From NCBI GenBank assembly GCA_001029735.1, contig CP011213.1, forward strand, positions 848,298-912,297: DNA of 64,000 nt, given 5' to 3'. The position numbers and the translations under genes are program-made. This document shows positions 457 to 63,836 of this stretch, in pieces; position 1 is the first letter of the stretch, and each line of letters opens with the position of its first letter. This stretch comes from Berkelbacteria bacterium GW2011_GWE1_39_12 (lineage in GTDB: Bacteria; Patescibacteriota; UBA1384; UBA12157). Under the pieces are notes generated by a model. That model did no database searches and had not been told where the DNA came from. It saw only the letters and a list, made by a program, of their open reading frames with translations.

Positions 457-570
457 ATGAAGGTTAGACCATCAGTTAAAAAAATTTGCCAGAAGTGTAA
501 AGTAATCCGAAGAAAAAATGTTATTCGGGTAATTTGTCAAAATCCAAAACACAAACAACGTCAAGGTTAA
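457..570 (+). CDS. rpmJ: 50S ribosomal protein L36
   Basis: 37 aa ORF below the track cutoff: [37 protein letters not shown]. Classic L36 zinc-ribbon sequence between infA and rpsM. Confidence 0.85.
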
Positions 571-585
571 TAACAGGAGTACCAT

Positions 586-972
586 ATGGCCCGTATTGCC
601 GGAGTAAACATCCCAGACAACAAACATGTAGAATATTCACTACCCTATATCAATGGGGTTGGTCTTTCGTTAGCTAAGAAAATCTGTGCTCAAGCAAACG
701 TGAAGTGCGGCACCAAAGTTTCCGATCTCACCACAACTGAAATTGACCGAATTCGCGAAGTTATCGATAAAAATTACAAGGTTGAAGGCGATTTGAAAAT
801 GGAAATCGCTCAAAATATTAAACGCTTAAAAGCAATCAGTTCATACCGCGGTTTAAGACACATGCGTAATTTGCCGGTTCACGGCCAACGCACTAAGACA
901 AATGCTCGCACAAAACGCGGCAAGAAAGTCACTGTTGGATCAGGCCGCAAGAAATCGGCTGAAAAGACATAA
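586..972 (+). CDS. rpsM: 30S ribosomal protein S13
   Basis: [10 protein letters not shown]...YRGLRH...; AGGAG RBS; conserved alpha-operon position. Confidence 0.95.
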
Positions 973-3756: not shown

Positions 3757-4170
3757 ATGCCAAAAGAGATTACAGAAATAAAAGAAACAATCGTCAAATC
3801 CAAAAACTACTGGTATGCTTTGGGACGCAGAAAAACTGCTATTGCCAAGGTAAAGTTAGTCAAAGGAACTGGCAAAGTAACTGTTAACGACAAAGAATTG
3901 GCCCAACCAAGCCGAGTTTATCTCGAACCGTTAAAGGTTACCGGCAAAGATAAAGAATTAGACATTTTTGCTAAGGTTTACGGTGGTGGCACAGTGGCTC
4001 AATTAGATGCAATCCGTTTAGGAATTGCTCGAGCCTTAGATAAATTCGATGGCGAACTCCATAAAACGTTAAAAGTTGAAGGTTTCCTTACTCGTGACGG
4101 AAGAATGAAAGAACGAAAGAAACCAGGTCTCAAAGGCGCTCGTAAGGCTCCACAATGGGCAAAACGTTAA
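3757..4170 (+). CDS. rpsI: 30S ribosomal protein S9
   Basis: ...YWYALGRRKTAIAKVKLVKGTG...GGGTVAQLDAIRLGIARAL...KAPQWAKR C-terminus typical of S9. Confidence 0.95.
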   Translation: MPKEITEIKETIVKSKNYWYALGRRKTAIAKVKLVKGTGKVTVNDKELAQPSRVYLEPLKVTGKDKELDIFAKVYGGGTVAQLDAIRLGIARALDKFDGELHKTLKVEGFLTRDGRMKERKKPGLKGARKAPQWAKR

Positions 4171-7654: not shown

Positions 7655-8365
7655 ATGTCATTATCAACTATGCAAGAAATTTTAGTTTTGCTCGAAGACG
7701 AAAAGCAAGTCCCTATGTACCGTCTGAATCGATGGGGAAGACCGGCTCGTGGGGCTTTAGCCAAGATGAAAAGTTTAGGCTATGTAACAAAAATTAAAGA
7801 CGGCGATGAGGACTTTTATAAAATCACTGAAAAAGGTGAAGCTTTTTTTGATAAATCTTTAGCACCTTTGAAAGACAATGCCAAATGGGATATGAAATGG
7901 CGCCTTGTTATGTTTGATATTCCTGAAACTGAACGAGGAAATCGTGATAAATTACGAAGAGCATTGACTGATATTGGCCTTGGCATTCTTCAAGCCAGCG
8001 TCTGGATTTCATCTATTGATATAAAAACCGATATCGATAAAATTACTAAGAACTTAAACTTGGGTAGTTCGATTAAATTTTTTGAGGTTACTTCAACTCC
8101 GTCATTAAATAGACAAATAATTAACAAAGCATGGAATTTGCCAGAAATTAATCTCTCGTTAGAACGTTTTATTAAAGAATCAGAGAGGGCACTCAAAGGG
8201 ATGGGAAAGGGTAACGGAGATCGCTATAACGCAAAGAAACTAATTTTTGAGTATGCTACTATACTAAAAAAAGACCCAAAGCTGCCTCTGGAATTTGTAG
8301 AACAAGATGAACTCAGAAAAAGTGCGAGAGAAACTTATCTTAAACTAAGAAAGCGTATTGTTTAA
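7655..8365 (+). CDS. PaaX-like family regulator (winged-helix N-domain + PaaX_C-like domain)
   Basis: Motif ...WDMKWRLVMFDIPETERGNRDKLRRALTDIGLGILQASVWIS... resembles the PaaX family. Assignment by pattern only. Confidence 0.55.
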   Translation: MSLSTMQEILVLLEDEKQVPMYRLNRWGRPARGALAKMKSLGYVTKIKDGDEDFYKITEKGEAFFDKSLAPLKDNAKWDMKWRLVMFDIPETERGNRDKLRRALTDIGLGILQASVWISSIDIKTDIDKITKNLNLGSSIKFFEVTSTPSLNRQIINKAWNLPEINLSLERFIKESERALKGMGKGNGDRYNAKKLIFEYATILKKDPKLPLEFVEQDELRKSARETYLKLRKRIV

Positions 8366-34933: not shown

Positions 34934-35197
34934 CTAGCAATCTATGTCAGGCGAGACTTGGCCTGTTTTATAGCGCAAATAGATAGTGGTTATTAATCCA
35001 ATCAGTAATAATGCTGACATTATAATTAATATAATTTTATTTTTCCGTGTGAACGCATTTTCTTTTATCGCAATCTGTTCGACGATAAAAACGAGTGCAA
35101 TAACAATAGTTACAGATCCTAACCCCCAGCCAATCCAGTTAATTATCAACAGCCATAATGGCGGCGTAAATATGCATTTCATAGTTGTATTATTCAT
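34934..35197 (-). CDS. small hypothetical membrane protein (87 aa)
   Basis: Three hydrophobic helices; weak evidence beyond ORF length. Confidence 0.35.
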   Translation of the reverse strand: MNNTTMKCIFTPPLWLLIINWIGWGLGSVTIVIALVFIVEQIAIKENAFTRKNKIILIIMSALLLIGLITTIYLRYKTGQVSPDIDC

Positions 35198-35277: not shown

Positions 35278-36042
35278 TTAGCTCATGATGATCTCGGCCG
35301 CTCTCTTGAGGACGAGGATCTTTTCTGTGATGCGATCCGATGTCTCAAGCGCATTGAGATCGACAGCTATATCTTCCCGCTGAAGATCCTCGATCTCCGT
35401 CAACAGCTGGTTAATTGCCAGCTCACGGGTAAGGATTTGATTGGCAATGGCCTGCTTAGTATCCAGCGCCATTTGTGCATTAGTTGCCAAAGCTTCTGAC
35501 AGCTCAGCGATTCTACGATCAATTGAAGCAGTCGGTGATTCGACAACAACGACAGCCATTTCAACAACCGTTTCCGGCGGCTCCTCCACAGGAGCTTGTT
35601 CGGCTGGAGGTTCAACTGGAGCAGGCGGTTCGGTTGATTCAACCGGCGGCTCGACCGTATCGGTAGGAGCAGGCGGCACCACGTCTGTTTGCGTGGACTT
35701 GGCCGTCTTTGGCTTCTTAGGCAATTGGCTCGCCTTCACCGTCTTGATTTCGATTGGCGTGTCGCCGAAGAATGCAACGAGATCTATGACATCGCCGTTA
35801 CGATAGGCTTCGCCGTTGATTAAAACTTCGGCAGCATCTAGCCGGAGCTTGGCGTAATGCTTGATCAACTTATAACTGCTTCTAACATCGGGCTCATGCT
35901 CGATGAAGCCGCCCTTGCGCAGGTATGTCATGTAAACCGAAATGTTGCCTCGGGTCTTTTGTGTGATCACCATCAGAGCGTCCGTGTCGACCAGCCCGTA
36001 TTTATCGAACTTGAGCTGATTACCCAATGCACTGTAGAGCAT
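35278..36042 (-). CDS. hypothetical protein with central proline-rich linker and C-terminal coiled coil; higher-GC islet (start chosen at internal Met 36042, just downstream of the sigma-factor stop)
   Basis: The longer ORF (to 36258) overlaps the sigma gene by ~200 nt in another frame. MLYSALGNQLKFDKYG... start removes the overlap. Contains PPAPTDTVEPPVESTEPPAPVEPPAEQAPVEEPPE linker. Confidence 0.45.
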   Translation of the reverse strand: MLYSALGNQLKFDKYGLVDTDALMVITQKTRGNISVYMTYLRKGGFIEHEPDVRSSYKLIKHYAKLRLDAAEVLINGEAYRNGDVIDLVAFFGDTPIEIKTVKASQLPKKPKTAKSTQTDVVPPAPTDTVEPPVESTEPPAPVEPPAEQAPVEEPPETVVEMAVVVVESPTASIDRRIAELSEALATNAQMALDTKQAIANQILTRELAINQLLTEIEDLQREDIAVDLNALETSDRITEKILVLKRAAEIIMS

Positions 36043-36061
36043 AATACCAGTGGGAGTAATT

Positions 36062-37288
36062 TCATCCGTTACATCGTTTGGTAGCGGAGACAACGCCGGA
36101 TTTGATCCAGCGTCTGGAATGAACGGGGGAACACTCGGCCATATTGATCGGCTTGTGCTTTTCCACGGTGCCGATACCAACAATAGCCAAGACTGATACT
36201 TTGCTGTCATCAAATTCAACTGTGGTGACAGGTCCTCTGGAGACATTGTAACCTCCATGATGAATCACCAGGTCCTTTTCGATAAGTATCTCCAGACTAC
36301 CTGTCACATCATCAGGCCTCATCTTGCAGGCGTTTGCCGCTCTACTGATGGCTAGTAACACCACTTCAGACGAAGCGGTCAGTTGATAGATATGCGCTAA
36401 TAAGGTTAATGACTTAGCGCGAAGAACTGGTATCTCTCTGATTTCTGTCGATTCCACTACTTTTCCTACCCTTCCTTCCGGTTTTACCGGAATATCCGTC
36501 GATCGAACTACTTCATGATCTGAGTCATCTAGAAGTTCTTTCAGTCGTTTCAACGCTTTGTCTTGCAATCTGCTGACATGCATTTGACTGATACTGAGAA
36601 TTTCAGCCACTTCCGCTTGAGGTTTATCCTCAAAAAAACGGAGATAGATAATGCTCTTCTGGCGTTCATCAAGACATTCGATGGAGTGAAAAAGATCTCC
36701 GTAATTGTCTTGATTCGCAATACCAGGATCAAGTTCTCCCATGAATTCAGCGAGCGTTAAAGCAGTTGATTCACCATCGGAGCCCAGAGCGGTATCCAAC
36801 GATACTGTTTCGTAGGCGTTTCCCATCTCCATTGCAGCTAGAGTATCTTCTTCACTTGCGCCAACTGCTTCAGAAACTTCTTCAACCGTCGGCGCCCTTC
36901 CCAGACTCTGGCTAAGATTTTCGGAGACCTTGTTACAAGCCCAGTTCAGCTCCTTCAGTCGTCTTGGAACCTTTAAACTCCATTTTTTATCCCGAAAATG
37001 CCGTCTGATCTCTCCAACAATGGTAGGTGTTGCAAAGGTTGAAAATACAGTACCTCTTTCTGAGTCATATCTATCGACTGCGTGAATCAATCCTATCATT
37101 CCGACCTGGATCAAATCATCTAACGGCTCCCCCCGGTTCGCGAATTTTCCCGCTAAGAAACGAACAAGACTCTGATGCATCAAAACCAACCTGTCCCTAG
37201 TCCTCTGATCTCTGTTTTGTGCATAAGATCTCAACAATCTCTGTTCTTCCTCTTTGCGGTCTTGCAGGCAGCGATTTGCTTTCCTCAT
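36062..37288 (-). CDS. group-3 (SigB/FliA-like) RNA polymerase sigma factor with ~160-aa C-terminal extension; higher-GC islet
   Basis: Region 2 (...DLIQVGMIGLIHAVDRYDSERGTVFSTFATPTIVGEIRRHFRD...) and region 4 (...YLRFFEDKPQAEVAEILSISQMHVSRLQDKALKRLK...), followed by an unassigned 160-aa tail. Confidence 0.75.
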   Translation of the reverse strand: MRKANRCLQDRKEEEQRLLRSYAQNRDQRTRDRLVLMHQSLVRFLAGKFANRGEPLDDLIQVGMIGLIHAVDRYDSERGTVFSTFATPTIVGEIRRHFRDKKWSLKVPRRLKELNWACNKVSENLSQSLGRAPTVEEVSEAVGASEEDTLAAMEMGNAYETVSLDTALGSDGESTALTLAEFMGELDPGIANQDNYGDLFHSIECLDERQKSIIYLRFFEDKPQAEVAEILSISQMHVSRLQDKALKRLKELLDDSDHEVVRSTDIPVKPEGRVGKVVESTEIREIPVLRAKSLTLLAHIYQLTASSEVVLLAISRAANACKMRPDDVTGSLEILIEKDLVIHHGGYNVSRGPVTTVEFDDSKVSVLAIVGIGTVEKHKPINMAECSPVHSRRWIKSGVVSATKRCNG

Positions 37289-37378
37289 TTCTTTTCACCT
37301 GCTTTCCTTGAACCTATTTTTCAAACACCGATATTTTATCATTAAAATATTTTTTTGTAAAGATTATCAAGGCTGACA

Positions 37379-37446
37379 TTGACATATTCGCGTTTTTTCG
37401 ATATAGTTGTAATTGAGATGGTAAGTTATTAAACTTACCTTTTTTT
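37379..37446 (+). promoter_or_regulatory. consensus-like promoter (TTGACA-17-TATAGT) immediately followed by intrinsic terminator hairpin (GGTAAGTT-atta-AACTTACC + T7)
   Basis: Promoter hexamers at 37379-37384 and 37402-37407; terminator 37420-37446. Would give a ~30-nt transcript or act as an insulator/attenuator. Confidence 0.4.
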
Positions 37447-37447
37447 A

Positions 37448-37512
37448 TATCCTAAGGATACAAGCTCCGCTTATACCCGAAGGATACAAACTTGATTTAT
37501 ATCCGAAGGATA
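37448..37512. promoter_or_regulatory. array of three 13-bp palindromes TATCC-N3-GGATA (TATCCTAAGGATA, TACCCGAAGGATA, TATCCGAAGGATA) at exact 26-bp spacing - putative operator array
   Basis: Direct reading; each palindrome is embedded in a conserved ~20-nt unit TTATAYCCKAAGGATACWA. Located between the divergent sigma-factor gene and the nusA promoter. Confidence 0.5.
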
Positions 37513-37520
37513 CTAGCGAT

Positions 37521-37570
37521 TTGACAAAATTTATCAATATAATACAATAAATGTAAAGTTAAGTTTACAT
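37521..37570 (+). promoter_or_regulatory. putative nusA promoter (TTGACA ... TACAAT) and downstream 20-bp palindrome ATGTAAAGTTAAGTTTACAT in 5' UTR
   Basis: -35 at 37521-37526, -10 at 37543-37548 (16-nt spacer). Palindrome 37551-37570, 24 nt before the nusA ATG. Confidence 0.4.
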
Positions 37571-37593
37571 TAGAGAATTAAAGGAGTCCCCAA

Positions 37594-38811
37594 ATGGCAA
37601 TTTCACCATTTATGGCAGCAATCAATCAATTATGTGACGAAAAAAGTCTTTCAAAAGACACGATTTTAGAAACCATCGAAGCCGCGATCGCCGCCGCTTA
37701 CAGAAAAGATTATGGTGAACCTAGCCAAATTGTTAAGGCAAAAATGGACGAAGAAACTGGCGAGGCGAAGTTCTGGCAGGTTTTTGATGTCGTGGAAGAA
37801 GTCGAAGACCCAGAGTCTCAAAAGACATTAGATGAAGCCAAAAAAATTGATAAAAAAGCCAAGCTTGGTGAACAAGTTGAAATCGAATTGGAGACTCATT
37901 CTGAATTCGGACGTATTGCCGCTCAAACTGCTAAACAGGTTATTACTCAGCGTATTCGCGAAGCAGAACGAGATATGCTCTTTACCGAATTTAAAGATAA
38001 AGAAGCTCAATTAATCAACGGCACGATTCAACAAATTGAAAGTGGCAACGTTATTATCGATTTGGGAAAAATCAACGGTATTATGCCACCATCAGAACAA
38101 ATTTCAAATGAAAAATATTATTCTGGCCAAAGAATTAAAATTTTTGTTAAAGCAGTTGAAGAAACCAGTCGTGGTCCAAAAATTTTAGTTTCAAGATCAG
38201 ACGCAGGTTTGGTTGAAGGCCTTTTTGAAAATGAAGTCCCTGAAATAGCCGCCGGATCAGTTGAAATTAAGGGAATTGCCAGAGAAGCCGGCAGCCGTAG
38301 CAAGGTTTCAGTTTTTACTTCCCAAGAAGGACTGGATCCAGTAGGCTCATGTGTGGGTCAGCGCGGTACCCGTATCCAAGCAGTTTTAGCTGAACTACCA
38401 GAAGAAAAAATAGATATTATTCTATGGAATGCAGATGAAAAACAGTATATAATTAATGCTCTTTCACCAGCAAAGGTGGACAAAGTTAAGCTCAGTAAAG
38501 AAGAGCAACGTGCCATTGTTTATGTTCCAGATGATCAACTTTCATTAGCCATTGGAACTGGCGGACAAAATGTTCGACTCGCCAGCAAATTAACCGGTTG
38601 GAGCTTAGACATTGAAAAAACTGACGAAGCTACAGAAAAAGAAAAAACAGAAGCAGTAGACGAAGAACCAAAAGAAAAAATTGCAAAGCCAAAAAAAACC
38701 AAAAAGAATAAAAAAGAAAAAGATGCTGAATTGCCAGAAGACTCAGCTATTAATACAGAAACTCCTATGGCTGAGACCGGCGATTTAGACGAAATCGCCA
38801 CCAATGAATAA
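37594..38811 (+). CDS. nusA: transcription termination/antitermination factor NusA with acidic/lysine-rich C-terminal tail
   Basis: NusA N-domain, S1 and two KH domains (...GSCVGQRGTRIQAV...). Confidence 0.9.
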   Translation: MAISPFMAAINQLCDEKSLSKDTILETIEAAIAAAYRKDYGEPSQIVKAKMDEETGEAKFWQVFDVVEEVEDPESQKTLDEAKKIDKKAKLGEQVEIELETHSEFGRIAAQTAKQVITQRIREAERDMLFTEFKDKEAQLINGTIQQIESGNVIIDLGKINGIMPPSEQISNEKYYSGQRIKIFVKAVEETSRGPKILVSRSDAGLVEGLFENEVPEIAAGSVEIKGIAREAGSRSKVSVFTSQEGLDPVGSCVGQRGTRIQAVLAELPEEKIDIILWNADEKQYIINALSPAKVDKVKLSKEEQRAIVYVPDDQLSLAIGTGGQNVRLASKLTGWSLDIEKTDEATEKEKTEAVDEEPKEKIAKPKKTKKNKKEKDAELPEDSAINTETPMAETGDLDEIATNE

Positions 38812-38891
38812 TTTGTGGCCAGAAAGCACAAAAATTAATGAATAATTATGGCCCTAACGGGCGCGGAAATTATTCACTAATATAAAAACAT

Positions 38892-41423
38892 ATGAATAAT
38901 TATGACCCACAAGAAATATTTAAAAAATTTGCTCCGAACGCTCGCAAGATCCTAATTTCCAGTCAAAAAATTGCCCAAAGCATGGACAGTGCTTTGGGAA
39001 GCGAACATATTCTTCTCGCTTTAGCCGTTACGCCAAATACTTTGGCAAACGGTATTTTAAAGGAGCATATGATCAGCATGGACCAAATCCGGCTGGTTAT
39101 TTCTTTACATCGCTTTGCCGATAAAAACGGTACCGGAATCACCGACGAAGCAAAAGAAGTGTTCGAATTGGCGGCAAAAGAAGCACAAAATTTCGGCCAT
39201 AATAAAATCGATACGGAACACATTCTTTTAGCGATAACGGAAAAACCGGATTCGCTCGGGGCTGAGGTTATTAATAAAATTGGCATTAATCCAGAAGATA
39301 TCCGGACTCAAATTGAAAATTTTTTCGAAGATTTAAAAGACATGGAAGACGCCAACGAGATAATTTCCCAGCAACAACTGCCGCCAAACTTTAGTGGTGG
39401 TGATTTGCCGAACTATCCAGATTTACCACCAATGCAAGAAATGCCTATGCCTGGCAAACCAAAAGGTTTAGAATACTATACAACTGACTTAACTAAAGAA
39501 GCAGAAGAGAAAAAACTTGATCCGGTCATCGGCCGCGAAAAAGAAATTCAACGAGCAATTCAAATACTTACTCGACGCACCAAAAACAATCCAGTTTTAG
39601 TCGGAGAACCTGGTGTCGGTAAAACCGCAATTGTCGAAGGCTTGGCTCAAAAAATCGCCGAAAATGACATTCCTGAAAGTCTCAAAGGCAAAAGAGTTAT
39701 TATGCTCGATTTGGCTTTAATGATTGCCGGCACAATGTACCGCGGTCAATTTGAAGAAAGAGTCAAAAAAGTATTAGACGAACTTATCAAAAGAGGGGAT
39801 ACTCTCTTGTTTGTCGACGAAATTCATACCATTGTAGGCGCGGGCTCGGCCGAAGGTTCTTTGGATTTAGCCAATATTTTGAAACCATCTTTAGCCAAAG
39901 GTAAAATTCACTTGATTGGTGCCACCACACATGAAGAGTACCGCAAATTCATCGAAAAGGACCCGGCTTTGGAACGCAGATTGCAAAAAATCACAGTCAA
40001 TGAACCATCGCCTGAAGAAGCTGTTCAAATTTTAAAGGGAATTAAAAAAAACTATGAAGTTCATCACGGCGTAAAGATATCCGACGAAGCCATTGAAGTG
40101 GCTGTCGATCTTTCCAGAAGATACATCTTTGATCGATTTTTGCCCGATAAGGCAATTGATTTAATCGATGAAGCTTCTGCCGCCTGGCAGATTCGCTATG
40201 GCAGAAAAACGATTATTGATACTGATGCCTTACAAAAACAATTGGATCAAGTAAAAAAGCAAAAAGAGCAGGAAGTCCGAAATGAAAACTTTGAAAAAGC
40301 TGCAAATTTACGCAATCTTGAAACTCGTTTAAAAGATGAGATTGAAGTTAATAAAAAAATTAAGACCGAAACTGGTCCGGTTTCAATTGGTCGTGAAGAC
40401 ATTGCCAAGGTTTTAGCACTCTGGACCAATGTTCCTGTGGAGACTTTAAAAACTGAAGAAAAAGAAAAATATCTTAAATTAAAAGAAATTTTGAAAAAGT
40501 CGATTATTGGTCAAGATGAAGCCATTGAAGAAATATCTTTAGCAATCAAAAGATCAAAATCGGGTATGTCTGATCCGCATCGTCCAATCGGTTCCTTTAT
40601 TTTCTTAGGTCCAACTGGTGTAGGAAAAACGGAATTAGCCAGAGTTCTTTCAGAAGAACTTTTCGGCAGCCGCGAATCTATTATCAAAATTGATATGTCG
40701 GAATTTATGGAACGCCATAATGTATCCAGATTATTGGGGGCGCCTCCAGGATATGTCGGTTATGAAGAAGCGGGTAAACTAACCGAGCAAGTTCGTCAAA
40801 AACCATATTCAATTATTTTGTTTGATGAAATTGAAAAAGCCCATCCGGAAATTTTCAATATTTTATTGCAGATTTTGGAAGATGGGGAATTAACTGACGC
40901 CAAAGGCCGAAAGATTAATTTCCGCAACACTATTATTATTATGACTTCAAATATTGGCATGCATAAGCTAACCGAGCAAGCTGCCATTGGTTTTGCAACC
41001 AAAGAAAAAGACGAGAAGGCAGTGAAAGATAATTACGAACGAATGAAAGACGAAGTGGTCAAAGAATTAAAGCACGAGTTCAGACCAGAGCTTTTAAACC
41101 GCTTAGATAAGGTCATTGTTTTTCGTCCATTGGGCAAAGAAGAAATTGAGAAGATCGCCAAGTTACAGCTTGAACGATTAGCGAAAAGATTAAGAGAAGA
41201 AAAAACAGAAATAACTTTTGATAACAAAGTGGTAAGTCTTATTGCCGAAAAAGGCTATGATCCGCACTTTGGTGCCCGTCCAATTCGTCGCGCTATTTCG
41301 GAATTAATTGAAAATCCTTTAAGCGACTATATTTTATCGGATAAATTTGACCAAAGCGAACCGATAAAAATCACTGTCACTAAAGGTGAGATTAGTTTTA
41401 AAAAAGCGGCTAAATTAGTTTAG
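38892..41423 (+). CDS. clpC: ATP-dependent Clp protease ATP-binding subunit ClpC (two Clp_N repeats, two AAA+ modules, UVR-like middle motif)
   Basis: Walker A GEPGVGKT and GPTGVGKT; ...KAIDLIDEA...; 843 aa. Confidence 0.9.
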   Translation: MNNYDPQEIFKKFAPNARKILISSQKIAQSMDSALGSEHILLALAVTPNTLANGILKEHMISMDQIRLVISLHRFADKNGTGITDEAKEVFELAAKEAQNFGHNKIDTEHILLAITEKPDSLGAEVINKIGINPEDIRTQIENFFEDLKDMEDANEIISQQQLPPNFSGGDLPNYPDLPPMQEMPMPGKPKGLEYYTTDLTKEAEEKKLDPVIGREKEIQRAIQILTRRTKNNPVLVGEPGVGKTAIVEGLAQKIAENDIPESLKGKRVIMLDLALMIAGTMYRGQFEERVKKVLDELIKRGDTLLFVDEIHTIVGAGSAEGSLDLANILKPSLAKGKIHLIGATTHEEYRKFIEKDPALERRLQKITVNEPSPEEAVQILKGIKKNYEVHHGVKISDEAIEVAVDLSRRYIFDRFLPDKAIDLIDEASAAWQIRYGRKTIIDTDALQKQLDQVKKQKEQEVRNENFEKAANLRNLETRLKDEIEVNKKIKTETGPVSIGREDIAKVLALWTNVPVETLKTEEKEKYLKLKEILKKSIIGQDEAIEEISLAIKRSKSGMSDPHRPIGSFIFLGPTGVGKTELARVLSEELFGSRESIIKIDMSEFMERHNVSRLLGAPPGYVGYEEAGKLTEQVRQKPYSIILFDEIEKAHPEIFNILLQILEDGELTDAKGRKINFRNTIIIMTSNIGMHKLTEQAAIGFATKEKDEKAVKDNYERMKDEVVKELKHEFRPELLNRLDKVIVFRPLGKEEIEKIAKLQLERLAKRLREEKTEITFDNKVVSLIAEKGYDPHFGARPIRRAISELIENPLSDYILSDKFDQSEPIKITVTKGEISFKKAAKLV

Positions 41424-42394
41424 CCGCTAAAGAGATCGGATGTGAAAACAATCTCACCTTCCCAATGAGGGACCAATAGGTCAAACCCAATATGACCTCG
41501 TCTTCTTCTGTCTTCGTCATATTTGATTCGGCCCTTGCAGTAAGGACGCATGCCGCAATTTTGAGCACAATAAAATGCTCTCTTTTGCAAGTTATGCTTA
41601 GGCGCTTTCGCGCAAATATCAGCACTTAACCACCACCCGCCTTGGGAAAAATCCACCCAGGATATGTTGTGGTCCAAACAAACTTGGCAATAATCAGTAC
41701 TGAGCAATAGTGCGATTGCATCTTTATATTCAGTGTCCGACGACGTGATAACGCCCAATTCAAATGCCTTTCTTAGGGCATGAACATCTACTGGCACAGC
41801 CGGAATCTTACTGGCTGTTTCCCAATCTGCCTTATGAGTTCGCCAACTTACTGCCTGAAACCAAATGATAATGAGTTGCGCAATCTTATGTGCTATTCCG
41901 TCAAAATCACACAACCTCTCCATCAGCTCAAGCCTTTGCTCCATCGGGTCGCCTGGTTTTAGATTATAGAAGATTTTTCGAGGATCCCCATCGTAATCCG
42001 TATGCAACCTAATCAGATTGTTTTTCCAGTTCTTGATATATTCTGGATGCGTCTCGCCGAATGGGACTATTGGCGTCATGTCTTCTATAAATCGTTTAAG
42101 ACTCGTATGCGGGTTTAGAAGATGGCGCCGATTTTGCATTATATCTGCCACCTTCGAAATAACTTCGGTTGCTTTTTTACCACTTCGACTTAATTGTCCC
42201 ATACAAAAAAGCTGAAGAGCATGCTCTCGGCTACCATATTTTATGTTTGGCGATGAAAACCTTTCTTCTGGCGGTTTCTGATAATACGGCGAACACTTAT
42301 ACAATTGCCATAACTCAGCAATCCGAATCACTACCTCAACCATCCTGTCCTCATCAACTGTGAATCGTCTCTTGGGATTCTTCCACCCCGGCAT
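41420..42394 (-). CDS. HhH-GPD-superfamily DNA glycosylase-like protein with C-terminal Cys4 ([4Fe-4S]-like) cluster; higher-GC
   Basis: Helix-hairpin-helix-like ...DFDGIAHKIAQLIIIWF... and ...VPVDVHALRKAFELGVI..., then C-x14-C-x3-C-x5-C. GGAGGTGGAG RBS. Pattern-based. Confidence 0.5.
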   Translation of the reverse strand: MPGWKNPKRRFTVDEDRMVEVVIRIAELWQLYKCSPYYQKPPEERFSSPNIKYGSREHALQLFCMGQLSRSGKKATEVISKVADIMQNRRHLLNPHTSLKRFIEDMTPIVPFGETHPEYIKNWKNNLIRLHTDYDGDPRKIFYNLKPGDPMEQRLELMERLCDFDGIAHKIAQLIIIWFQAVSWRTHKADWETASKIPAVPVDVHALRKAFELGVITSSDTEYKDAIALLLSTDYCQVCLDHNISWVDFSQGGWWLSADICAKAPKHNLQKRAFYCAQNCGMRPYCKGRIKYDEDRRRRGHIGFDLLVPHWEGEIVFTSDLFSG

Positions 42395-48753: not shown

Positions 48754-48776
48754 AAATCAAAAAAATAATACTTTAA

Positions 48777-49519
48777 CCATATTCCACCTCGTAGGTGGAA
48801 TATGGTTCAGCCTGCATAATCTTCGATAATTATTTTTCTAATAATGGATAGATTTTTTTGGTAGGATTTTCGATCATTAACAAATTCTTGATACTGCTTT
48901 GGCGTGAAATCAAACAACCCATCAAAAGAACATAATTGAAGGTTTGATTGCCCTAAATATTCTTGATAGGACGAAAAGTCCCAATCTTGAGGTTTTTTAA
49001 CCAAACCAGCTGATGTTGGATTGAGATGAATATAACGACTTAAATGCAGAAGCTGCTCATCTGATTTAACTAGAACGCTTTTAAACCTACCTGCCCATAA
49101 GGGCCCGGTTCTCTTAAATTTAATATTGTGATAACGAGTATAGCAATTAAGTGTTTTCGCCATAAAATTCGAGATTCCTTTGTCGGTAATTTGCTTCAAA
49201 ATTAAATGAATATGAGTTGGCATAAGACAATAGGCAATTATCTGCACGTCTACTTGACCAGACTTCTTCATCTCATTAATTATTGCGGCTTGTAATTTTT
49301 TATCTAAGTTTAAAAATCTCGAATATTTAAAATTAAAATTATTAAAGCGATATAGATCCAAGATGTTGATTAACCGATTAAAATCTTGAGCATTGTTAAA
49401 AATGACATATTTGGCGATGCTCCGACTATAAACATGATATACCGAGCCTGACACCAATGGTTCTTTTCTGTACTGCATAATATCACTATACCATATTCCA
49501 CCTACGAGGTGGAATATGG
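48777..49519. mobile_element. REP-associated tyrosine transposase (RAYT) unit: tnpA-REP flanked by two inverted 29-bp palindromic REP hairpins (CCATATTCCACCT-CGTA-GGTGGAATATGG at 48777-48805; reverse complement at 49491-49519)
   Basis: Flanking hairpins are exact reverse complements of each other and bracket the Y1-transposase gene. Confidence 0.7.
48807..49478 (-). CDS. REP-associated tyrosine transposase (IS200/IS605-like Y1 HUH transposase)
   Basis: ...YHVYSRSI...IIAYCLMPTHIHLIL... HUH motif and ...LSRYIHLNP... catalytic Tyr region; 223 aa. Confidence 0.8.
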   Translation of the reverse strand: MQYRKEPLVSGSVYHVYSRSIAKYVIFNNAQDFNRLINILDLYRFNNFNFKYSRFLNLDKKLQAAIINEMKKSGQVDVQIIAYCLMPTHIHLILKQITDKGISNFMAKTLNCYTRYHNIKFKRTGPLWAGRFKSVLVKSDEQLLHLSRYIHLNPTSAGLVKKPQDWDFSSYQEYLGQSNLQLCSFDGLFDFTPKQYQEFVNDRKSYQKNLSIIRKIIIEDYAG

Positions 49520-49620
49520 TTGTAAGATAATTATTTATGAAAATTACTTATATAAATAGCAAAGAGCCCGCGGTCATATGATCTTTGATATCATTTCAGA
49601 TCGTAACCACGGGCTTGATG

Positions 49621-50057: not shown

Positions 50058-50654
50058 ATGGAACCACTAACAAAACGCCAAAAAGAAATCTATGACTTTA
50101 TCGAACAATATATCGCATCTCACGATTACGCCCCCTCCTATCGTGAGATTGCGGAATTTTTCAATCTTTCTTCCGTCGCCACGGTGTCAGATCACATCGA
50201 GAATTTGAAGGAAAAGGATTATCTCAAAAAGGACTTTAACGAAGCCCGATCCTTGCAACTGACACCGCGTTTCGACGAGCGAACATTCACCATTCCGTTG
50301 CTCGGCGCCATTGCTGCCGGCATGCCGATCGAAGCAATTCGTACCAACGAGACGATTGATATCCCTAAAGATATGATGGGTAAAAACGTTTTTGCTCTGA
50401 AAGTAAGAGGGGACTCAATGATTGACGATGGTATTTTTGACGGCGATTATATTGTCATTGAACAAACTAACAGCCCTCATGATGGCGAAATAGTCGTCGC
50501 CTTAATCGAAAACGAAATGGCCACGCTAAAAAGATTTTACCGCGAAAAAGATTGTATTCGTTTGCAACCAGCCAATTCAAATTACAACCCAATTAGAACT
50601 AATAAAGTTACTATCCAAGGTCGGGTAAAAGGGGTCATTAGAAAGTTTAGCTAA
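50058..50654 (+). CDS. lexA: LexA repressor
   Basis: N-terminal wHTH (...LTKRQKEIYDFIEQYI...), Ala-Gly cleavage region, S24 peptidase ...VRGDSMID... and Lys (...TLKRFY...). Confidence 0.9.
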   Translation: MEPLTKRQKEIYDFIEQYIASHDYAPSYREIAEFFNLSSVATVSDHIENLKEKDYLKKDFNEARSLQLTPRFDERTFTIPLLGAIAAGMPIEAIRTNETIDIPKDMMGKNVFALKVRGDSMIDDGIFDGDYIVIEQTNSPHDGEIVVALIENEMATLKRFYREKDCIRLQPANSNYNPIRTNKVTIQGRVKGVIRKFS

Positions 50655-58909: not shown

Positions 58910-60256
58910 GTGAATAAATTTATCAATTTTCTCAAGGAAAATTCGCAGTTCATCTATTCAGTTATATTAATTATACTGATTCCTATTTTGATAGTCGCAA
59001 ATACGCTTTGGCAGATAAGATCGAGTAACGCAACTCAAGAAGCAGAGCAAGAAAAAAAAGCACTTCTAACTGAAGCAGTTTTAGTTAATTCTATCGATGT
59101 CATTAAACAACCACCAGCATATATTCAAAACCAGATCGATAACATAGCCAAAGAAAATGATGAAATAAAAGAGATAACAATTTTAAATACTAAAAGTGAT
59201 GGATTTGCGGTTTTAGCCTCTACAAATCAGCAGAACTTGGGTTTAACTTTCACATCCGAAGAATATATTAAAGCCTTTGCTCAAGACAAACCGTCTATAA
59301 ATATAATCCAAGATACTTCAAAAACAACTAATGAGCGATTTTTAACGGTGAGTGCGCCGATTAAAAATAGCCTAAGCGCTCAAAAAACTGCTCTCGTTAA
59401 TGTAAAAATCTCTTTATCAGATATTGATACTCTAAACCGTAAAAATTACAGTACAACCTTGGTTTTCTTGGTTGTAACAGTTTTTCTTGTTCTGTTGCTT
59501 CTCATAAACTTTGCACGATTCTTTGAATTTGCAGTTTTGTTTAAAAAATTAAATGAAGTCGATAAAATGAAAGACGATTTCATTTCCATCGCTACTCATG
59601 AAATGAAAACTCCTATGGCAGCAATTAAAGGGTATATTTCCATGATGATGGAAGGGCTAGTTGGAAAATTCGATGATAAAACCAGAGATCATTTACTAAA
59701 AATTAATACTAATATTCAACGACTTGATTTGCTTTTGAGTGAAACTTTAGATGTCTCGCGTTTGGAGCAGGGAAGAATGCAGTTCGATATGCAACCGTAC
59801 GATATTAGCAAGGTAGTTGAGCAATCCATCAAAATGTCACTGGATCAAGCTATCACAAAGGGATTAAAACTAAGTCAAGAAAAGTTGGAACGTATGCCGA
59901 TGACCTTTATTGATCCGGATAGAATTCAACAAGTTGTCGATAACTTGATCGGAAACGCAGTTAAGTATACTCAAAAAGGCAGTGTCACGGTTCTCTATAA
60001 GATGGAAAATGGCCAGCTGCGCGTTATAGTAAAAGATACAGGTATCGGCATGAACGAGGAAGATCGAAAAGGCCTATTTACAAAGTTTTATAGAATTAAA
60101 AATGAAAAAACTGTCGATATTGCTGGTACTGGTTTGGGACTGTGGATTGCTCGAGAAATCGTAAGAAAAATGAATGGAGATATTTTAGTGAATTCTAAAG
60201 AGAATGTTGGTTCAGAGTTTATTATTTCTCTCCCGTATATGAAGGAAAAAGTATGA
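58910..60256 (+). CDS. sensor histidine kinase (two TM helices flanking an extracytoplasmic domain; HisKA + HATPase_c); no cognate response regulator adjacent
   Basis: H-box ...IATHEMKTPMAAIKGY...; G-boxes ...DTGIGMNEE... and ...GTGLGLWIAREIV.... Confidence 0.85.
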   Translation: MNKFINFLKENSQFIYSVILIILIPILIVANTLWQIRSSNATQEAEQEKKALLTEAVLVNSIDVIKQPPAYIQNQIDNIAKENDEIKEITILNTKSDGFAVLASTNQQNLGLTFTSEEYIKAFAQDKPSINIIQDTSKTTNERFLTVSAPIKNSLSAQKTALVNVKISLSDIDTLNRKNYSTTLVFLVVTVFLVLLLLINFARFFEFAVLFKKLNEVDKMKDDFISIATHEMKTPMAAIKGYISMMMEGLVGKFDDKTRDHLLKINTNIQRLDLLLSETLDVSRLEQGRMQFDMQPYDISKVVEQSIKMSLDQAITKGLKLSQEKLERMPMTFIDPDRIQQVVDNLIGNAVKYTQKGSVTVLYKMENGQLRVIVKDTGIGMNEEDRKGLFTKFYRIKNEKTVDIAGTGLGLWIAREIVRKMNGDILVNSKENVGSEFIISLPYMKEKV

Positions 60257-62483: not shown

Positions 62484-63058
62484 GCCTAATGATAACCACC
62501 GGCGAATGCCGGTGGTATCTATCCTGCCCGCTGATCGCGGGCGAGGTTACAACAGGACTGGTTGAGCTGATTGCTGTTTGTCTTGGTTTTGAATGTATTT
62601 TCTGATTGCTATTTCACTGATGCCGATAGTGGAAACAAAGTATCCACGACTCCAAAAGGTTCCTAAGGGAATCTTTTTGTTTTTCTTTTTGATCCAAGCG
62701 GATGATTTACCTTTCAGAATGCTCATGGCGTAGCTAACAGAGTATTTAGGAGGAATAGAAATATAGATATGAATATGGTCATCGGCAATATGGATTTCGT
62801 AAATCACAAGTCCTTTCCATTTGGCGATCATCTTGAAGATACGTTCAAATTCTTGTTTAATATAGGTAGAACACATGACTCTACCGCGATACTTTGGTGA
62901 CCAGACCAAGTGGTATCGACAACAGTATAACGCATGATTTAGTTGGTACAATCGAGAATTAGACAATAAAATCACCTCCTTCCTTCGTCGGGGTGATTTT
63001 ATTGTAACGCGATGCTTTAAAACGCACACGCCAGCTAAAGCTGGCGGATTTTCCTTTA
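62484..63058. mobile_element. IS200/IS605-family insertion sequence (tnpA only) with subterminal hairpins (ACCACCGGC-gaat-GCCGGTGGT, GCCCGC-tgat-GCGGGC at left; CGCCAGC-taa-GCTGGCG at right) and an RBS-sequestering hairpin
   Basis: TnpA Y1 transposase flanked by imperfect palindromes. AAAATCACC...GGTGATTTT stem (62970-63002) covers the GGAGG of tnpA. Confidence 0.55.
62547..62966 (-). CDS. tnpA: IS200/IS605 family transposase TnpA (Y1 HUH)
   Basis: ...YHLVWSPKYRGRV..., ...DDHIHIYISIPPKYSVS... (HuH), ...RGYFVSTIG... (catalytic Tyr). TTG start 8 nt after GGAGG preferred over the upstream GTG. Confidence 0.75.
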   Translation of the reverse strand: MSNSRLYQLNHALYCCRYHLVWSPKYRGRVMCSTYIKQEFERIFKMIAKWKGLVIYEIHIADDHIHIYISIPPKYSVSYAMSILKGKSSAWIKKKNKKIPLGTFWSRGYFVSTIGISEIAIRKYIQNQDKQQSAQPVLL

Positions 63059-63123: not shown

Positions 63124-63660
63124 TTATAGACTGGCCATAACCGATTCAACTCGTAAGTGCCAAGTATCACCGACACAATAGATAGGGTTGATTTTAGCAG
63201 GCGTATCTAAACCACGACTGAAGTAAACACGTTTGATATAGTCAAACTGGTCACGAATACCTTCTTCTGGGGTAGACCATGAGGCCCAACCACCAGATTT
63301 GGCCTTACGACCAAAGTAGTTGTGGTTGCGTTCGGCAAGCGAAGAACCATAATTACCGGATTCGTGGTAACCAATAGCATAAACTAATTTCCAGTCAACG
63401 GAGTATTCAGGAGCAATAGACTGCATGAAAGCCTTAATTTTTTCAGGGGTAGGATTTTCATTAAAATCCTTCATATCGGCCTCAGAAACACCAATAATAA
63501 TTTCGGTTTTTTGAGGTTCGATTTTTAACATCTGGCTAGCACCCTTATCAAAAACAATGTTTGATTCAGGTTTATTACTCTTAGCCTGGGCGATAGCGGT
63601 AGAAGCTAAGAAGATAGCGGCAACAGATAAAGAGATAGTTAATATTTTCTTAATAGTCAT
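63124..63660 (-). CDS. secreted GH73-family N-acetylglucosaminidase-like peptidoglycan hydrolase
   Basis: Signal peptide then ...YAIGYHESGNYGSSLAERNHNYFG... (FlgJ/GH73 catalytic region). Confidence 0.65.
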   Translation of the reverse strand: MTIKKILTISLSVAAIFLASTAIAQAKSNKPESNIVFDKGASQMLKIEPQKTEIIIGVSEADMKDFNENPTPEKIKAFMQSIAPEYSVDWKLVYAIGYHESGNYGSSLAERNHNYFGRKAKSGGWASWSTPEEGIRDQFDYIKRVYFSRGLDTPAKINPIYCVGDTWHLRVESVMASL

Positions 63661-63836
63661 TGAAACTCCTTTAATTAAATTAATAAAAAAATCTTTCGGA
63701 TCTCTCCAAAAGACGATCTAGTATATCATATAAGTAACCGCTTGTCAAGATATTAACCCACAATCGGTAAACAAAAAGAGCCTTTGCAAAGCATTGGCTC
63801 TTTTTGAATATTTAATATTAAATTGTTTTACCCTTA

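What the first reader, a model, noticed from the sequence alone, without database searches (positions are those of the whole stretch)
37379..37570. Complex control region between sigma gene and nusA: promoter-terminator pair, three TATCC-N3-GGATA palindromes at 26-bp spacing, and a UTR palindrome
In order, the region contains:
1. a near-consensus TTGACA-17-TATAGT promoter whose +1 runs straight into a perfect intrinsic terminator;
2. three copies of a 20-nt unit centred on the palindrome TATCC-N3-GGATA, spaced exactly 26 bp (about 2.5 helical turns) apart and ending 9 nt before the nusA -35;
3. a 20-bp perfect palindrome (ATGTAAAGTTAAGTTTACAT) in the nusA leader.
This looks like an operator array for a dimeric regulator, possibly controlling both divergent genes. 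The promoter-terminator pair could produce a tiny RNA or insulate nusA.
Basis: seen in the sequence. Interest (0 to 1): 0.55.

Follow-up and report, generated by a model that had tools for sequence, protein, structure and literature searches.

The report
Berkelbacteria nusA promoter-terminator control region
This is the control region of the nusA-clpC genes in a Candidatus Berkelbacteria genome: a promoter-plus-terminator cassette and a second promoter are conserved across the group and probably let NusA limit its own synthesis, while the three palindromic repeats occur only in this genome and have no identified binding partner.

Summary
All four features are at the stated coordinates. Two details are wrong: the middle repeat reads TACCC, not TATCC, and the "perfect" 20-bp palindrome is symmetric at only 18 of 20 positions.

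I compared 11 orthologous nusA loci from other Berkelbacteria (NusA 70-88% identical). This splits the region into two layers.

- **Conserved layer.** P1 (TTGACA-17-TATAAT) runs after 8-12 nt into the hairpin GGTAAGTY-loop-RACTTACC followed by T6-7. The hairpin is in all 12 loci and P1 in the 11 that reach that far upstream. P2 follows, and an ATGTAAA-N6-TTTACAT motif covers its start site (all 12 loci). I read P1 plus hairpin as a leader attenuator ahead of the main promoter, working like the NusA-stimulated leader terminator of Bacillus subtilis nusA.
- **Private layer.** The 3 x 26-nt array sits in a hypervariable 13-133-nt spacer between the two modules. It is absent from all relatives; one relative has a single degenerate copy. 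It is also absent from the other 63.9 kb of the window.

The 19-nt repeat cores are conserved (6/57 mismatches) while the 7-nt spacers are not (15/21). Protein-binding sites are therefore plausible, but no regulator or regulon was found. The adjacent sigma gene and a 254-aa orphan gene form an insertion specific to this lineage.

Overall this is an ordinary kind of control region with moderately interesting details.

The parts
37333..37361 (-). Promoter-like site for the divergent sigma gene (TTTACA-17-TAAAAT with an upstream TG)
   Evidence: Consensus scan, 10 of 12 positions. It lies back-to-back with P1. The sigma ORF starts at 37288. No experimental support.
37379..37407 (+). P1: TTGACA-17-TATAGT promoter of the leader cassette
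   Evidence: 11 of 12 consensus positions. A promoter with the same -35/-10 geometry sits 8-12 nt upstream of the hairpin in 11 of 11 loci that extend that far.
37420..37446 (+). Leader hairpin GGTAAGTT-ATTA-AACTTACC followed by T7 (intrinsic-terminator structure starting about 5 nt after the inferred P1 start site)
   Evidence: Present once per locus, and only upstream of nusA, in all 12 Berkelbacteria loci. 100% of stem cells are paired, with one compensatory U-A to C-G pair and one U-A to U-G change. Loop length varies from 3 to 8 nt.
37445..37463 (.). Repeat unit 1, TTATATCC-TAA-GGATACAA
   Evidence: Overlaps the last two T of the terminator tail.
37471..37489 (.). Repeat unit 2, TTATACCC-GAA-GGATACAA (imperfect left arm)
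   Evidence: The T-to-C change still allows a G-U pair, but only in a minus-strand RNA.
37497..37515 (.). Repeat unit 3, TTATATCC-GAA-GGATACTA
   Evidence: Its right arm overlaps a weak minus-strand promoter-like -10 (TTGATA-16-TAGTAT, 37537 to 37510).
37521..37548 (+). P2: TTGACA-16-TACAAT, the proximal nusA promoter
   Evidence: 11 of 12 consensus positions. TTGACA is invariant in all 10 aligned loci and a TAnnAT-type -10 follows. Also present in L330 and L331.
37551..37570 (.). Imperfect palindrome ATGTAAAG-TTAA-GTTTACAT covering the inferred P2 start site (about 37555)
   Evidence: ATGTAAA is invariant and the TTTAC-type right arm nearly so in 10 of 10 aligned loci. Right-arm changes are not compensated in the left arm.
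37581..37596 (+). Shine-Dalgarno sequence AAGGAG and the nusA ATG
   Evidence: Read directly from the sequence. nusA ORF 37594-38811.
37594..41423 (+). nusA (37594-38811) and a clpC-like gene (38892-41423), the genes controlled
   Evidence: Pfam NusA_N/S1/KH and Clp_N/AAA_2/UVR. The nusA-clpC order is kept in all relatives, and the two genes often nearly abut or overlap.
35278..37288 (-). Lineage-specific insertion upstream of P1: a sigma B/F/G gene (36062-37288, 408 aa, with an orphan 150-aa C-terminal extension) and a 254-aa orphan gene (35278-36042)
   Evidence: Absent from relatives. In L081, WecG, a 179-aa gene and a 106-aa minus-strand gene lie directly before P1, and the 106-aa gene is the orthologue of window 34934-35197. 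The sigma core is 64-68% identical to roughly 257-aa sigma factors, several named Armatimonadota. The extension and the 254-aa protein have no homologues.

Best explanation
The stretch is the control region of the nusA-clpC operon of a Candidatus Berkelbacteria genome. It has two layers.

**Layer 1, conserved across the group.**
- P1 is a near-consensus promoter. Its transcript forms a weak 8-bp hairpin followed by a U-tract within about 35 nt of its start.
- Most P1 transcripts should therefore end as roughly 30-nt RNAs, and only read-through reaches nusA.
- NusA stimulates termination at weak hairpins, so I infer that this cassette is a NusA-sensing attenuator: more NusA means less read-through. 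It would work like the leader terminator of B. subtilis nusA.
- P2 lies 13-133 nt downstream and supplies basal expression.
- The ATGTAAA-N6-TTTACAT motif covers the inferred P2 start site. It is more likely a DNA-level site (an operator, or a conserved start-site sequence) than an RNA hairpin, because P2 transcripts would lack its 5' arm.

**Layer 2, private to this genome.**
- Three 19-bp near-palindromes (TTRTATCC-N3-GGATAYAA) lie at exact 26-bp spacing in the hypervariable spacer.
- Their centres are at about +40, +66 and +92 from P1 and about -101, -75 and -49 from P2.
- They are most likely three binding sites for an unidentified dimeric DNA-binding protein. Bound there, it would block P1 elongation and read-through, and/or modulate P2.

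**Shown:** the sequence features, their conservation or absence in relatives, and the selective conservation of the repeat cores.

**Inferred:** start sites, termination, NusA dependence and any protein binding.
For: **Conserved layer.**
- All 12 Berkelbacteria nusA loci carry the hairpin, the variable spacer, P2 and the GTAAAG...TTTAC motif. P1 is seen in the 11 that extend far enough.
- The hairpin is 100% paired, with one compensatory U-A to C-G pair. Its loop varies from 3 to 8 nt, and T6-7 always follows. This fits an RNA terminator and not a fixed-spacing protein operator.
- The hairpin alone folds at only -7.4 to -9.0 kcal/mol, so it is weak.
- The hairpin motif occurs once per locus and only upstream of nusA.
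- E. coli greA likewise has a leader terminator that yields short GraL RNAs involved in autoregulation (PMC6829880).
- A Saccharibacteria nusA locus (L076) has a terminator-like hairpin 30 nt upstream of nusA. A Moraniibacteria locus (L001) has a promoter followed by a hairpin and T-run that I saw by eye in the sequence, although the scan did not call it.

**Array.**
- Highest-scoring tandem repeat in the window.
- 3 matches against 0.07 expected by chance.
- Cores differ at 6 of 57 compared positions and the 7-nt spacers at 15 of 21, Fisher p = 4e-7.
- Each core is a near-palindrome with 8-nt arms and a 3-nt centre.
Against: - P2 is itself near-consensus, so P1 read-through may add little to nusA expression.
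- The perfect U7 tract could make the terminator efficient without NusA.
- The near-invariant stem sequence (6 of 8 pairs never vary) is more conservation than a terminator alone needs.
- A second promoter-then-terminator cassette precedes an unrelated glucosaminidase-like gene (63748 to 63691 on the minus strand). The design is therefore not specific to nusA. It may be a general leader style, or a hairpin that stabilises the mRNA 5' end.
- For the array: it is absent from all 11 orthologous loci and from the other 63.9 kb of the window.
- No cognate regulator was identified.
- 26 bp is about 2.5 helical turns, which puts neighbouring sites on opposite faces of the helix. That is unusual for cooperative operators.
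- There are no transcript data of any kind.
Confidence: 0.5

Rival explanations
1. The 3 x 26-nt array is a selectively neutral or selfish tandem expansion of a local palindrome-containing segment in a spacer that tolerates any sequence. It binds nothing, and only P1, the terminator and P2 matter.
For: - The spacer between terminator and P2 is hypervariable in length (13-133 nt) and sequence.
- Other lineages show tandem duplications in the same control region, for example a roughly 47-nt duplication in the L331 leader.
- The closest relative with data, L330, has one degenerate unit-like sequence at the position of unit 1, which suggests the array grew in place.
- The motif is absent elsewhere.
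Against: Uniform neutral decay cannot give 6/57 mismatches in the cores against 15/21 in the spacers while the exact 26-nt register is kept. The recent L331 duplication is uniformly about 95% identical across its whole unit, unlike this array.
Confidence: 0.2
2. The array acts as RNA. In P1 read-through transcripts, or in a minus-strand transcript running towards the sigma gene, the units form hairpins or one long hairpin (unit 1 pairing with unit 3, unit 2 at the tip). This structure would affect read-through, stability or processing.
For: - The minus-strand RNA of 37440-37520 folds at -29.5 kcal/mol (z = -5.1), against -16.3 (z = -2.6) for the plus strand.
- The unit-2 variant keeps pairing, as G-U, only on the minus strand.
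- A weak minus-strand promoter-like site (TTGATA-16-TAGTAT, 37537 to 37510) overlaps unit 3.
Against: - Any array of palindromes folds well, so the z-score is not independent evidence.
- There is only one sequence, so covariation cannot be tested.
- The individual hairpins have only 5 bp and a 3-nt loop.
- The minus-strand promoter matches just 9 of 12 positions.
- Rfam finds nothing credible in the region; the best match has E = 0.4, far below its gathering score.
Confidence: 0.12
3. The P1-hairpin cassette is not an attenuator. It is either a gene for a conserved roughly 30-nt RNA that is itself the product, or a hairpin that stabilises the 5' end of a P1-derived nusA mRNA.
For: - The stem sequence is almost invariant across loci whose flanking DNA is unalignable.
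- The hairpin starts within a few nucleotides of the inferred 5' end, as stabilising 5' stem-loops do.
- A similar cassette precedes another gene that has no second promoter, so such hairpins cannot terminate all transcripts.
Against: - A 5' stabiliser does not need the U-tract, yet T6-7 is conserved in 12 of 12 loci.
- No target or partner for a tiny RNA is evident.
- The motif occurs only upstream of nusA.
- A micro-ORF (ATG GTA AGT TAT TAA) is present in this clade but not conserved in L084, L085 or L208.
Confidence: 0.13
4. The units are REP/BIME-like extragenic palindromes mobilised by a RAYT-type Y1 transposase.
For: - The window encodes two Y1_Tnp proteins (48807-49478 and 62547-63029).
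- One of them is flanked by inverted copies of a perfect 33-nt palindrome, the classic RAYT arrangement.
- REP elements often cluster in tandem next to terminators (my own knowledge, not checked here).
Against: The RAYT-flanking palindrome (ACCATATTCCACCT...AGGTGGAATATGGT) is unrelated in sequence to the TATCC units. No further copy of the TATCC unit exists in 64 kb, even allowing 3 mismatches.
Confidence: 0.05

Closest known systems
Bacillus subtilis nusA leader attenuator (NusA-stimulated intrinsic terminator; Mondal et al. 2016 as summarised in PMC12288461)
   Same: A promoter followed by an intrinsic terminator in the 5' leader of nusA, with no obvious antiterminator structure. The terminator hairpin is weak, the kind NusA is known to assist.
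   Different: - Here the hairpin starts about 5 nt after the inferred start site, so the terminated RNA is only about 30 nt.
- A second near-consensus promoter (P2) lies downstream of the terminator.
- The operon is nusA-clpC, with no rimP gene called upstream and no infB downstream in these loci.
- NusA dependence is untested.
Escherichia coli greA leader / GraL short RNAs (PMC6829880)
   Same: A transcription-factor gene whose promoter region yields short leader RNAs ending at an intrinsic terminator. The cassette takes part in autoregulation.
   Different: GreA is not a termination factor. There is no downstream second promoter, and no sequence similarity.
Tripartite phage operators such as lambda OR1-OR2-OR3 (my own knowledge)
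   Same: Three near-palindromic sites of 17-19 bp separated by 6-7-bp spacers, lying in a region between divergent genes.
   Different: - The period is 26 bp, against 23-24 bp in lambda.
- The sites do not overlap any -35 or -10 element of P1, P2 or the sigma promoter.
- No cI/Cro-like repressor gene is adjacent.
- The flanking genes are a sigma factor and nusA.
REP/BIME extragenic palindromes with RAYT transposases
   Same: Short palindromic units in tandem, located just downstream of a terminator. A RAYT-like gene with its own flanking palindromes is present 11 kb away.
   Different: There are no dispersed copies in 64 kb. The sequence is unrelated to the palindromes that flank the RAYT-like gene.

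Membership tests
Intrinsic (factor-independent) terminator | Stem-loop immediately followed by a U-tract on the transcribed strand | tested here: met
   8-bp stem (3 G-C pairs), 4-nt loop, T7. The hairpin alone folds at -7.8 kcal/mol; the leader folds at -10.2 kcal/mol, z = -4.0.
Intrinsic (factor-independent) terminator | Structure rather than loop spacing is conserved in relatives | tested here: met
   12 of 12 loci are fully paired. One compensatory U-A to C-G pair and one U-A to U-G change. Loops of 3, 4, 7 and 8 nt. T6-7 tail always present. Covariation is thin, because 6 of 8 pairs never vary.
Intrinsic (factor-independent) terminator | Transcripts actually end in the U-tract | not testable with these tools
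   No transcriptome data available.
NusA autoregulatory leader attenuator (B. subtilis type) | Terminator lies in the 5' leader between a promoter and nusA | tested here: met
   The hairpin lies upstream of nusA in all 12 loci, and P1 precedes it in the 11 that extend far enough. However, a second promoter (P2) lies between the terminator and nusA.
NusA autoregulatory leader attenuator (B. subtilis type) | Termination efficiency increases with NusA, and read-through sets nusA expression | not testable with these tools
   Needs in vitro transcription with and without NusA, or NusA depletion.
Sigma-70-type promoter (P1 and P2) | -35 and -10 hexamers close to consensus at 16-18-bp spacing, conserved in position in relatives | tested here: met
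   11 of 12 consensus positions for each promoter. P1 is conserved in 11 of 11 loci that reach it and P2 in 12 of 12. Start sites are inferred, not mapped.
Operator array of a dimeric transcription factor | Dyad-symmetric sites repeated in register | tested here: met
   Three near-palindromes with 8-nt arms and a 3-nt centre, at exact 26-bp spacing. Cores are conserved and spacers are not.
Operator array of a dimeric transcription factor | Sites conserved at orthologous loci | tested here: not met
   Absent from all 11 orthologous nusA loci. L330 has one degenerate unit-like sequence.
Operator array of a dimeric transcription factor | Further sites elsewhere in the genome (a regulon), or next to the regulator's own gene | tested here: inconclusive
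   None in the 64-kb window, which is about 7% of the 915-kb genome. The rest of the genome could not be read.
Operator array of a dimeric transcription factor | An identifiable cognate DNA-binding protein | tested here: inconclusive
   The adjacent orphan proteins have no homologues, no Pfam or PHROG domains, and only low-confidence models. LexA and the PaaX-like protein are in the window but are not linked to the motif.
REP/BIME elements | Many dispersed extragenic copies, and the same palindrome flanking a RAYT gene | tested here: not met
   No other copy in 64 kb. The RAYT-like gene is flanked by a different palindrome.
Known RNA families (Rfam 15) | Match at or above the family gathering score | tested here: not met
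   Nothing in 37280-37620 at the gathering threshold. The best permissive match has E = 0.4, 21 bits against a gathering score of 52.

The most novel reading that the evidence does not exclude
The conserved P1-hairpin cassette is a dedicated gene for a roughly 30-nt primary transcript whose invariant GGUAAGU/ACUUACC stem is recognised by NusA or RNA polymerase, acting as a titratable decoy or sensor specific to Berkelbacteria. In this one genome the three palindromes would then be docking sites for a protein from the adjacent orphan insertion, either the sigma factor's unique 150-aa C-terminal extension or the 254-aa coiled-coil protein. That would place horizontally acquired regulation directly on the nusA-clpC promoters.
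Probability: 0.07. Interest if true: 0.7.

Novelty: new variant of a known kind. Interest (0 to 1): 0.38.

Why it matters
Gene regulation in CPR/Patescibacteria is almost unexplored, because these organisms are uncultured and encode few recognisable regulators. A promoter-terminator-promoter module upstream of nusA, conserved across Berkelbacteria, is a concrete and testable cis-regulatory element. It suggests that NusA autoregulation by leader termination, known from B. subtilis, extends to this lineage in a very compact form (terminated RNA of about 30 nt).

The private triple palindrome shows how fast the spacer in this module gains lineage-specific sites. If it is bound by a protein, it would give access to an otherwise unrecognisable regulator. 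None of this overturns current views, and the elements are of known kinds.

Tried and rejected
1. **Genome-contig scan with NusA.** It returned only relatives at 50% identity or less, from other phyla. None carries the motif, so it was useless for orthology.
2. **Metagenome-contig scan for two units (TATCCN3GGATA-N8-20-TAYCCN3GGRTA).** The rows were unrelated tandem repeats and TTATCCAC-type palindromes. The source contig was not among them, so the scan is uninformative.
3. **Viral-contig scan for one unit.** Uninformative.
4. **Rfam at gathering and permissive thresholds.** No credible hit.
5. **Candidate regulators next door.** The sigma C-terminal extension and the 254-aa protein have no Pfam or PHROG hits and no homologues among 5.8 and 1.8 billion proteins. 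The AlphaFold models have pLDDT 33 and 56; only a C-terminal long helix is confident. No fold search was worth running.
6. **Look-up of the identical NusA (P0121) to get other assemblies.** Not on record.
7. **SigB/SigF-type promoter reading of the units.** GGGTAT appears on the minus strand of unit 2, but no properly spaced -35 element exists. Rejected by inspection.
8. **DnaA-box reading.** ATATCCGAA matches TTATCCACA at only 6 of 9 positions. Rejected.
9. **LexA-box or PaaX-operator reading.** No similar site lies near lexA (50058) among the matches with up to 2 mismatches. Rejected.
10. **Micro-ORF in the P1 leader (MVSY-stop).** Not conserved in L084, L085 or L208. Rejected.
11. **30-aa minus-strand ORF across the array (37445-37537).** It has a TTG start and nothing else supports it, and the 26-nt period is not a multiple of 3. 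Rejected.
12. **Long-range pairing between the terminator 3' arm and the P2 palindrome (12 of 13 in the window).** It drops to about 10 of 13 in relatives. Treated as coincidental.
Full report
**What is in the sequence.**
The 305-nt gap between a minus-strand sigma ORF (36062-37288) and nusA (37594-38811) contains, in order on the plus strand:
- TTGACA-17-TATAGT at 37379-37407. I call this P1.
- After 12 nt, the hairpin GGTAAGTT-ATTA-AACTTACC (37420-37439) followed by T7 (37440-37446).
- Three 26-nt tandem units starting at 37445, 37471 and 37497.
- TTGACA-16-TACAAT at 37521-37548. I call this P2.
- ATGTAAAGTTAAGTTTACAT at 37551-37570.
- AAGGAG and then the nusA ATG.

The consensus scan scores both promoters at 11 of 12 positions. 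It finds this hairpin as the only terminator-like site in 36800-38000. The P1 leader folds at -10.2 kcal/mol with z = -4.0.

The repeat array is the highest-scoring tandem repeat in the 64-kb window. The 19-mer consensus with up to 3 mismatches occurs three times against 0.07 expected by chance.

- The middle copy reads TACCC, not TATCC.
- The 20-bp "perfect" palindrome has a G:G clash, so only 18 of 20 positions are symmetric.

The symmetric repeat unit is also longer than described. It is TTRTATCC-N3-GGATAYAA.

**Genes and organism.**
- The minus-strand ORF has sigma-70 regions 2, 3 and 4. It is annotated in public records as a B/F/G-family sigma factor of 408 aa, AKM82779.1.
- The adjacent NusA is AKM82780.1, on a 915,059-bp Candidatus Berkelbacteria contig.
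- A ClpC-like ATPase gene follows nusA.

**Comparative evidence.**
I fetched 11 orthologous nusA loci from other Berkelbacteria, with NusA 70-88% identical to the window's.

All 12 loci, including the window, share one architecture:
- A consensus-like P1, seen in the 11 loci that extend far enough upstream.
- After 8-12 nt, the hairpin GGTAAGT(T/C)-loop-(A/G)ACTTACC followed by T6-7.
- A spacer of 13-133 nt with no sequence conservation.
- P2, with an invariant TTGACA.
- The block AATGTAAAGTAGAGTTTACAT, which directly abuts or overlaps the -10 of P2. After it come a leader of variable length, a Shine-Dalgarno sequence and nusA-clpC.

On an alignment of the 12 hairpins, every stem position pairs. 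One pair switches U-A to C-G by changes on both sides, one goes U-A to U-G, and six never vary. The loop length is 3, 4, 7 or 8 nt.

Variable loop length with a constant U-tract is what an RNA terminator shows. A dimeric protein operator would need fixed spacing between its half-sites.

The hairpin motif occurs exactly once per locus, always upstream of nusA.

For the P2 palindrome, the left arm ATGTAAA is invariant. The right arm changes in L083, L085, L086, L087, L208 and L209 without any compensating change in the left arm.

The -10 hexamer ends 0-4 nt before the palindrome or overlaps it by 2 nt. The inferred start site therefore falls inside the palindrome, and P2 transcripts would lack the 5' arm. 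This points to a DNA-level function (an operator, or a conserved start-site sequence) rather than a hairpin in the P2 mRNA. Only P1 read-through RNA could form the hairpin, at -6.2 kcal/mol and z = -1.1.

**The TATCC array is private to this genome.**
- None of the 11 relatives has it. A scan allowing 3 mismatches over all these loci finds only one chance-level hit elsewhere, in L085.
- The nearest relative with sequence at that spot, L330 (NusA 87%), has one degenerate unit-like sequence, TATACCCCCAGCATAG, exactly where unit 1 sits. This suggests the array grew in place.
- Within the window the motif occurs nowhere else.

The array is nevertheless not a uniformly decaying duplication. The three 19-nt cores differ at 6 of 57 compared positions and the 7-nt spacers at 15 of 21 (Fisher p = 4e-7), while the 26-nt register is exact. 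By contrast, a recent tandem duplication in the L331 leader is about 95% identical across its whole unit.

Selective conservation of dyad-symmetric cores is the signature of protein-binding sites. That is why I keep the operator reading as the most likely one.

With start sites inferred at about 37414 (P1) and about 37555 (P2), the site centres lie at:
- +40, +66 and +92 from P1;
- -101, -75 and -49 from P2;
- -128 to -180 from the sigma promoter-like site.

Unit 1 overlaps the end of the terminator's T-tract. A protein bound there would stop P1 elongation complexes early, or it could act on P2 from upstream. Control of the sigma gene is unlikely from this geometry.

**Neighbourhood.**
In relatives, the DNA between the WecG glycosyltransferase gene and P1 varies. 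In L081 a 106-aa membrane-protein gene lies directly before P1. Its orthologue in the window is 34934-35197, at 54% identity.

The sigma gene and the following ORF (35278-36042, 254 aa) are therefore an insertion specific to this lineage.
- The sigma core is 64-68% identical to roughly 257-aa SigB/F/G-type proteins, several of them named Armatimonadota.
- Its last 150 residues have no homologue among 5.8 billion proteins.
- The 254-aa protein has none among 1.8 billion cluster representatives.
- Neither has a Pfam or PHROG domain.
- The single-sequence AlphaFold models are unreliable, apart from a long C-terminal helix in the 254-aa protein.

The array and the insertion are both private to this genome and both flank the conserved P1 cassette. 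That co-occurrence is the only link between them.

**Mechanism.**
For the conserved layer, the best-supported analogy is B. subtilis. [quoted passage not shown]

The E. coli greA leader, whose terminator yields short GraL RNAs involved in autoregulation, is a second precedent for a transcription-factor gene (PMC6829880).

The Berkelbacteria hairpins are weak, -7.4 to -9.0 kcal/mol for the stem-loop alone. From my own recollection of Mondal et al. 2016, which I did not re-read here, this is the class of terminator that NusA assists.

Terminator-like hairpins also precede nusA in a Saccharibacteria locus. A Moraniibacteria locus shows a promoter followed by a hairpin and T-run that I saw by eye, although the scan did not call it.

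Several points weaken this reading:
- P2 is itself a near-consensus promoter.
- The U7 tract is perfect.
- The stem sequence is more conserved than a terminator needs.
- A second promoter-then-terminator leader precedes an unrelated glucosaminidase-like gene at 63748 to 63691 on the minus strand (TTGACA-17-TATACT, then a 9-bp stem with a GAGA loop and a T-run). That gene has no second promoter.

So such leaders are not unique to nusA in this genome. They may be a general design that makes the downstream genes sensitive to termination efficiency, or they may act as hairpins that stabilise the mRNA 5' end.

**Rivals for the array.**
- **Neutral or selfish expansion.** The core-versus-spacer contrast argues against it.
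- **An RNA structure.** The minus-strand RNA folds at -29.5 kcal/mol, z = -5.1, and the unit-2 variant keeps a G-U pair only on that strand. However, any array of palindromes folds well, and a single sequence gives no covariation test.
- **REP/BIME-like elements.** A RAYT-like Y1 transposase gene at 48807-49478 is flanked by inverted copies of a perfect 33-nt palindrome. That palindrome is unrelated in sequence to the TATCC unit, and the TATCC unit has no dispersed copies.

**Searches that failed.**
- The genome-contig scan with NusA returned only distant phyla.
- Rfam finds nothing in the region.

**Verdict.**
That core is most likely a leader attenuator followed by the main promoter and a site covering its start point.

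It still looks like a set of selected binding sites for a regulator that has not been identified.

All the elements are of known kinds. The compact promoter-terminator-promoter arrangement in a CPR lineage is a new variant and is worth a modest follow-up.

Noticed in passing
window 36062-36515 (minus strand; residues about 258-408 of the sigma ORF): The SigB/F/G-type sigma factor carries a 150-aa C-terminal extension. Its roughly 257-aa relatives lack it, and it has no homologue among 5.8 billion proteins. The AlphaFold model has pLDDT 33. JGI called only residues 183-408 as a gene, whereas NCBI calls all 408 aa.
   Followed up: partly
window 35278-36042 (minus strand): A 254-aa orphan protein: an N-terminal domain, a proline-rich linker and a confidently predicted long C-terminal helix (residues 170-253). 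It has no homologues and no domains. The mechanical 326-aa ORF (35278-36258) overlaps the sigma ORF, so the real start is probably the Met at 36042.
   Followed up: partly
window 48775-49520: An IS200-like Y1 transposase gene (48807-49478, minus strand) is flanked by two inverted copies of a perfect 33-nt palindrome, AACCATATTCCACCT-N3-AGGTGGAATATGGTT (48775-48807 and 49490-49520). This is a RAYT/REP-like arrangement in a CPR genome. No further copies occur in the window.
   Followed up: partly
window 63691-63748 (minus strand): A second promoter-then-terminator leader: TTGACA-17-TATACT, then 5 nt, then a 9-bp hairpin with a GAGA loop and a T-run. It lies about 30 nt upstream of a glucosaminidase-like gene (63124-63660), with no second promoter in between.
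   Followed up: partly
window 62547-63029 (minus strand): A second IS200-like Y1_Tnp gene (Pfam E = 3e-32). No flanking palindrome was detected.
   Followed up: partly
window 41420-42394 (minus strand): A 324-aa ORF with no Pfam hit lies between clpC and the conserved roughly 319-aa gene. Relatives such as L081 and L082 have no gene there, so this is another lineage-specific insertion.
   Followed up: no
L331 3090-3220 (leader between P2 and nusA): A roughly 47-nt segment starting with the right arm of the P2 palindrome (CTTTACATTGCAAGGTTAAAAACCTTGTAAC...) is tandemly duplicated at about 95% identity. L086 carries a second GTGTAAAG-TTTACAC palindrome in its leader.
   Followed up: no
L208 2811-2837; L087 3766-3792: Other lineages carry their own short palindromes in the same spacer upstream of P2. 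L208 has two AACAATTGTT-type palindromes 14 nt apart. L087 has TTGATACT-N11-AGTATCAA. L208 also has two rve-type transposase genes just upstream of P1.
   Followed up: no
L076 3953-3970; L001 about 3832-3915: The nusA genes of a Saccharibacteria locus and a Moraniibacteria locus are also preceded by a terminator-like hairpin in the leader. In L001 it follows a TTGACA-18-TAGTAT promoter and was seen by eye only, because the scan did not call it. This hints that leader termination upstream of nusA is widespread in CPR bacteria.
   Followed up: partly
window 514-618; 7655-8365; 50058-50654; 58910-60256: An Rfam Alpha_RBS leader match at the ribosomal-protein cluster (38.6 bits against a gathering score of 38). 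The window also encodes a PaaX-like protein, LexA and a HisKA histidine kinase, the recognisable regulatory proteins in the ORFs I scanned.
   Followed up: no
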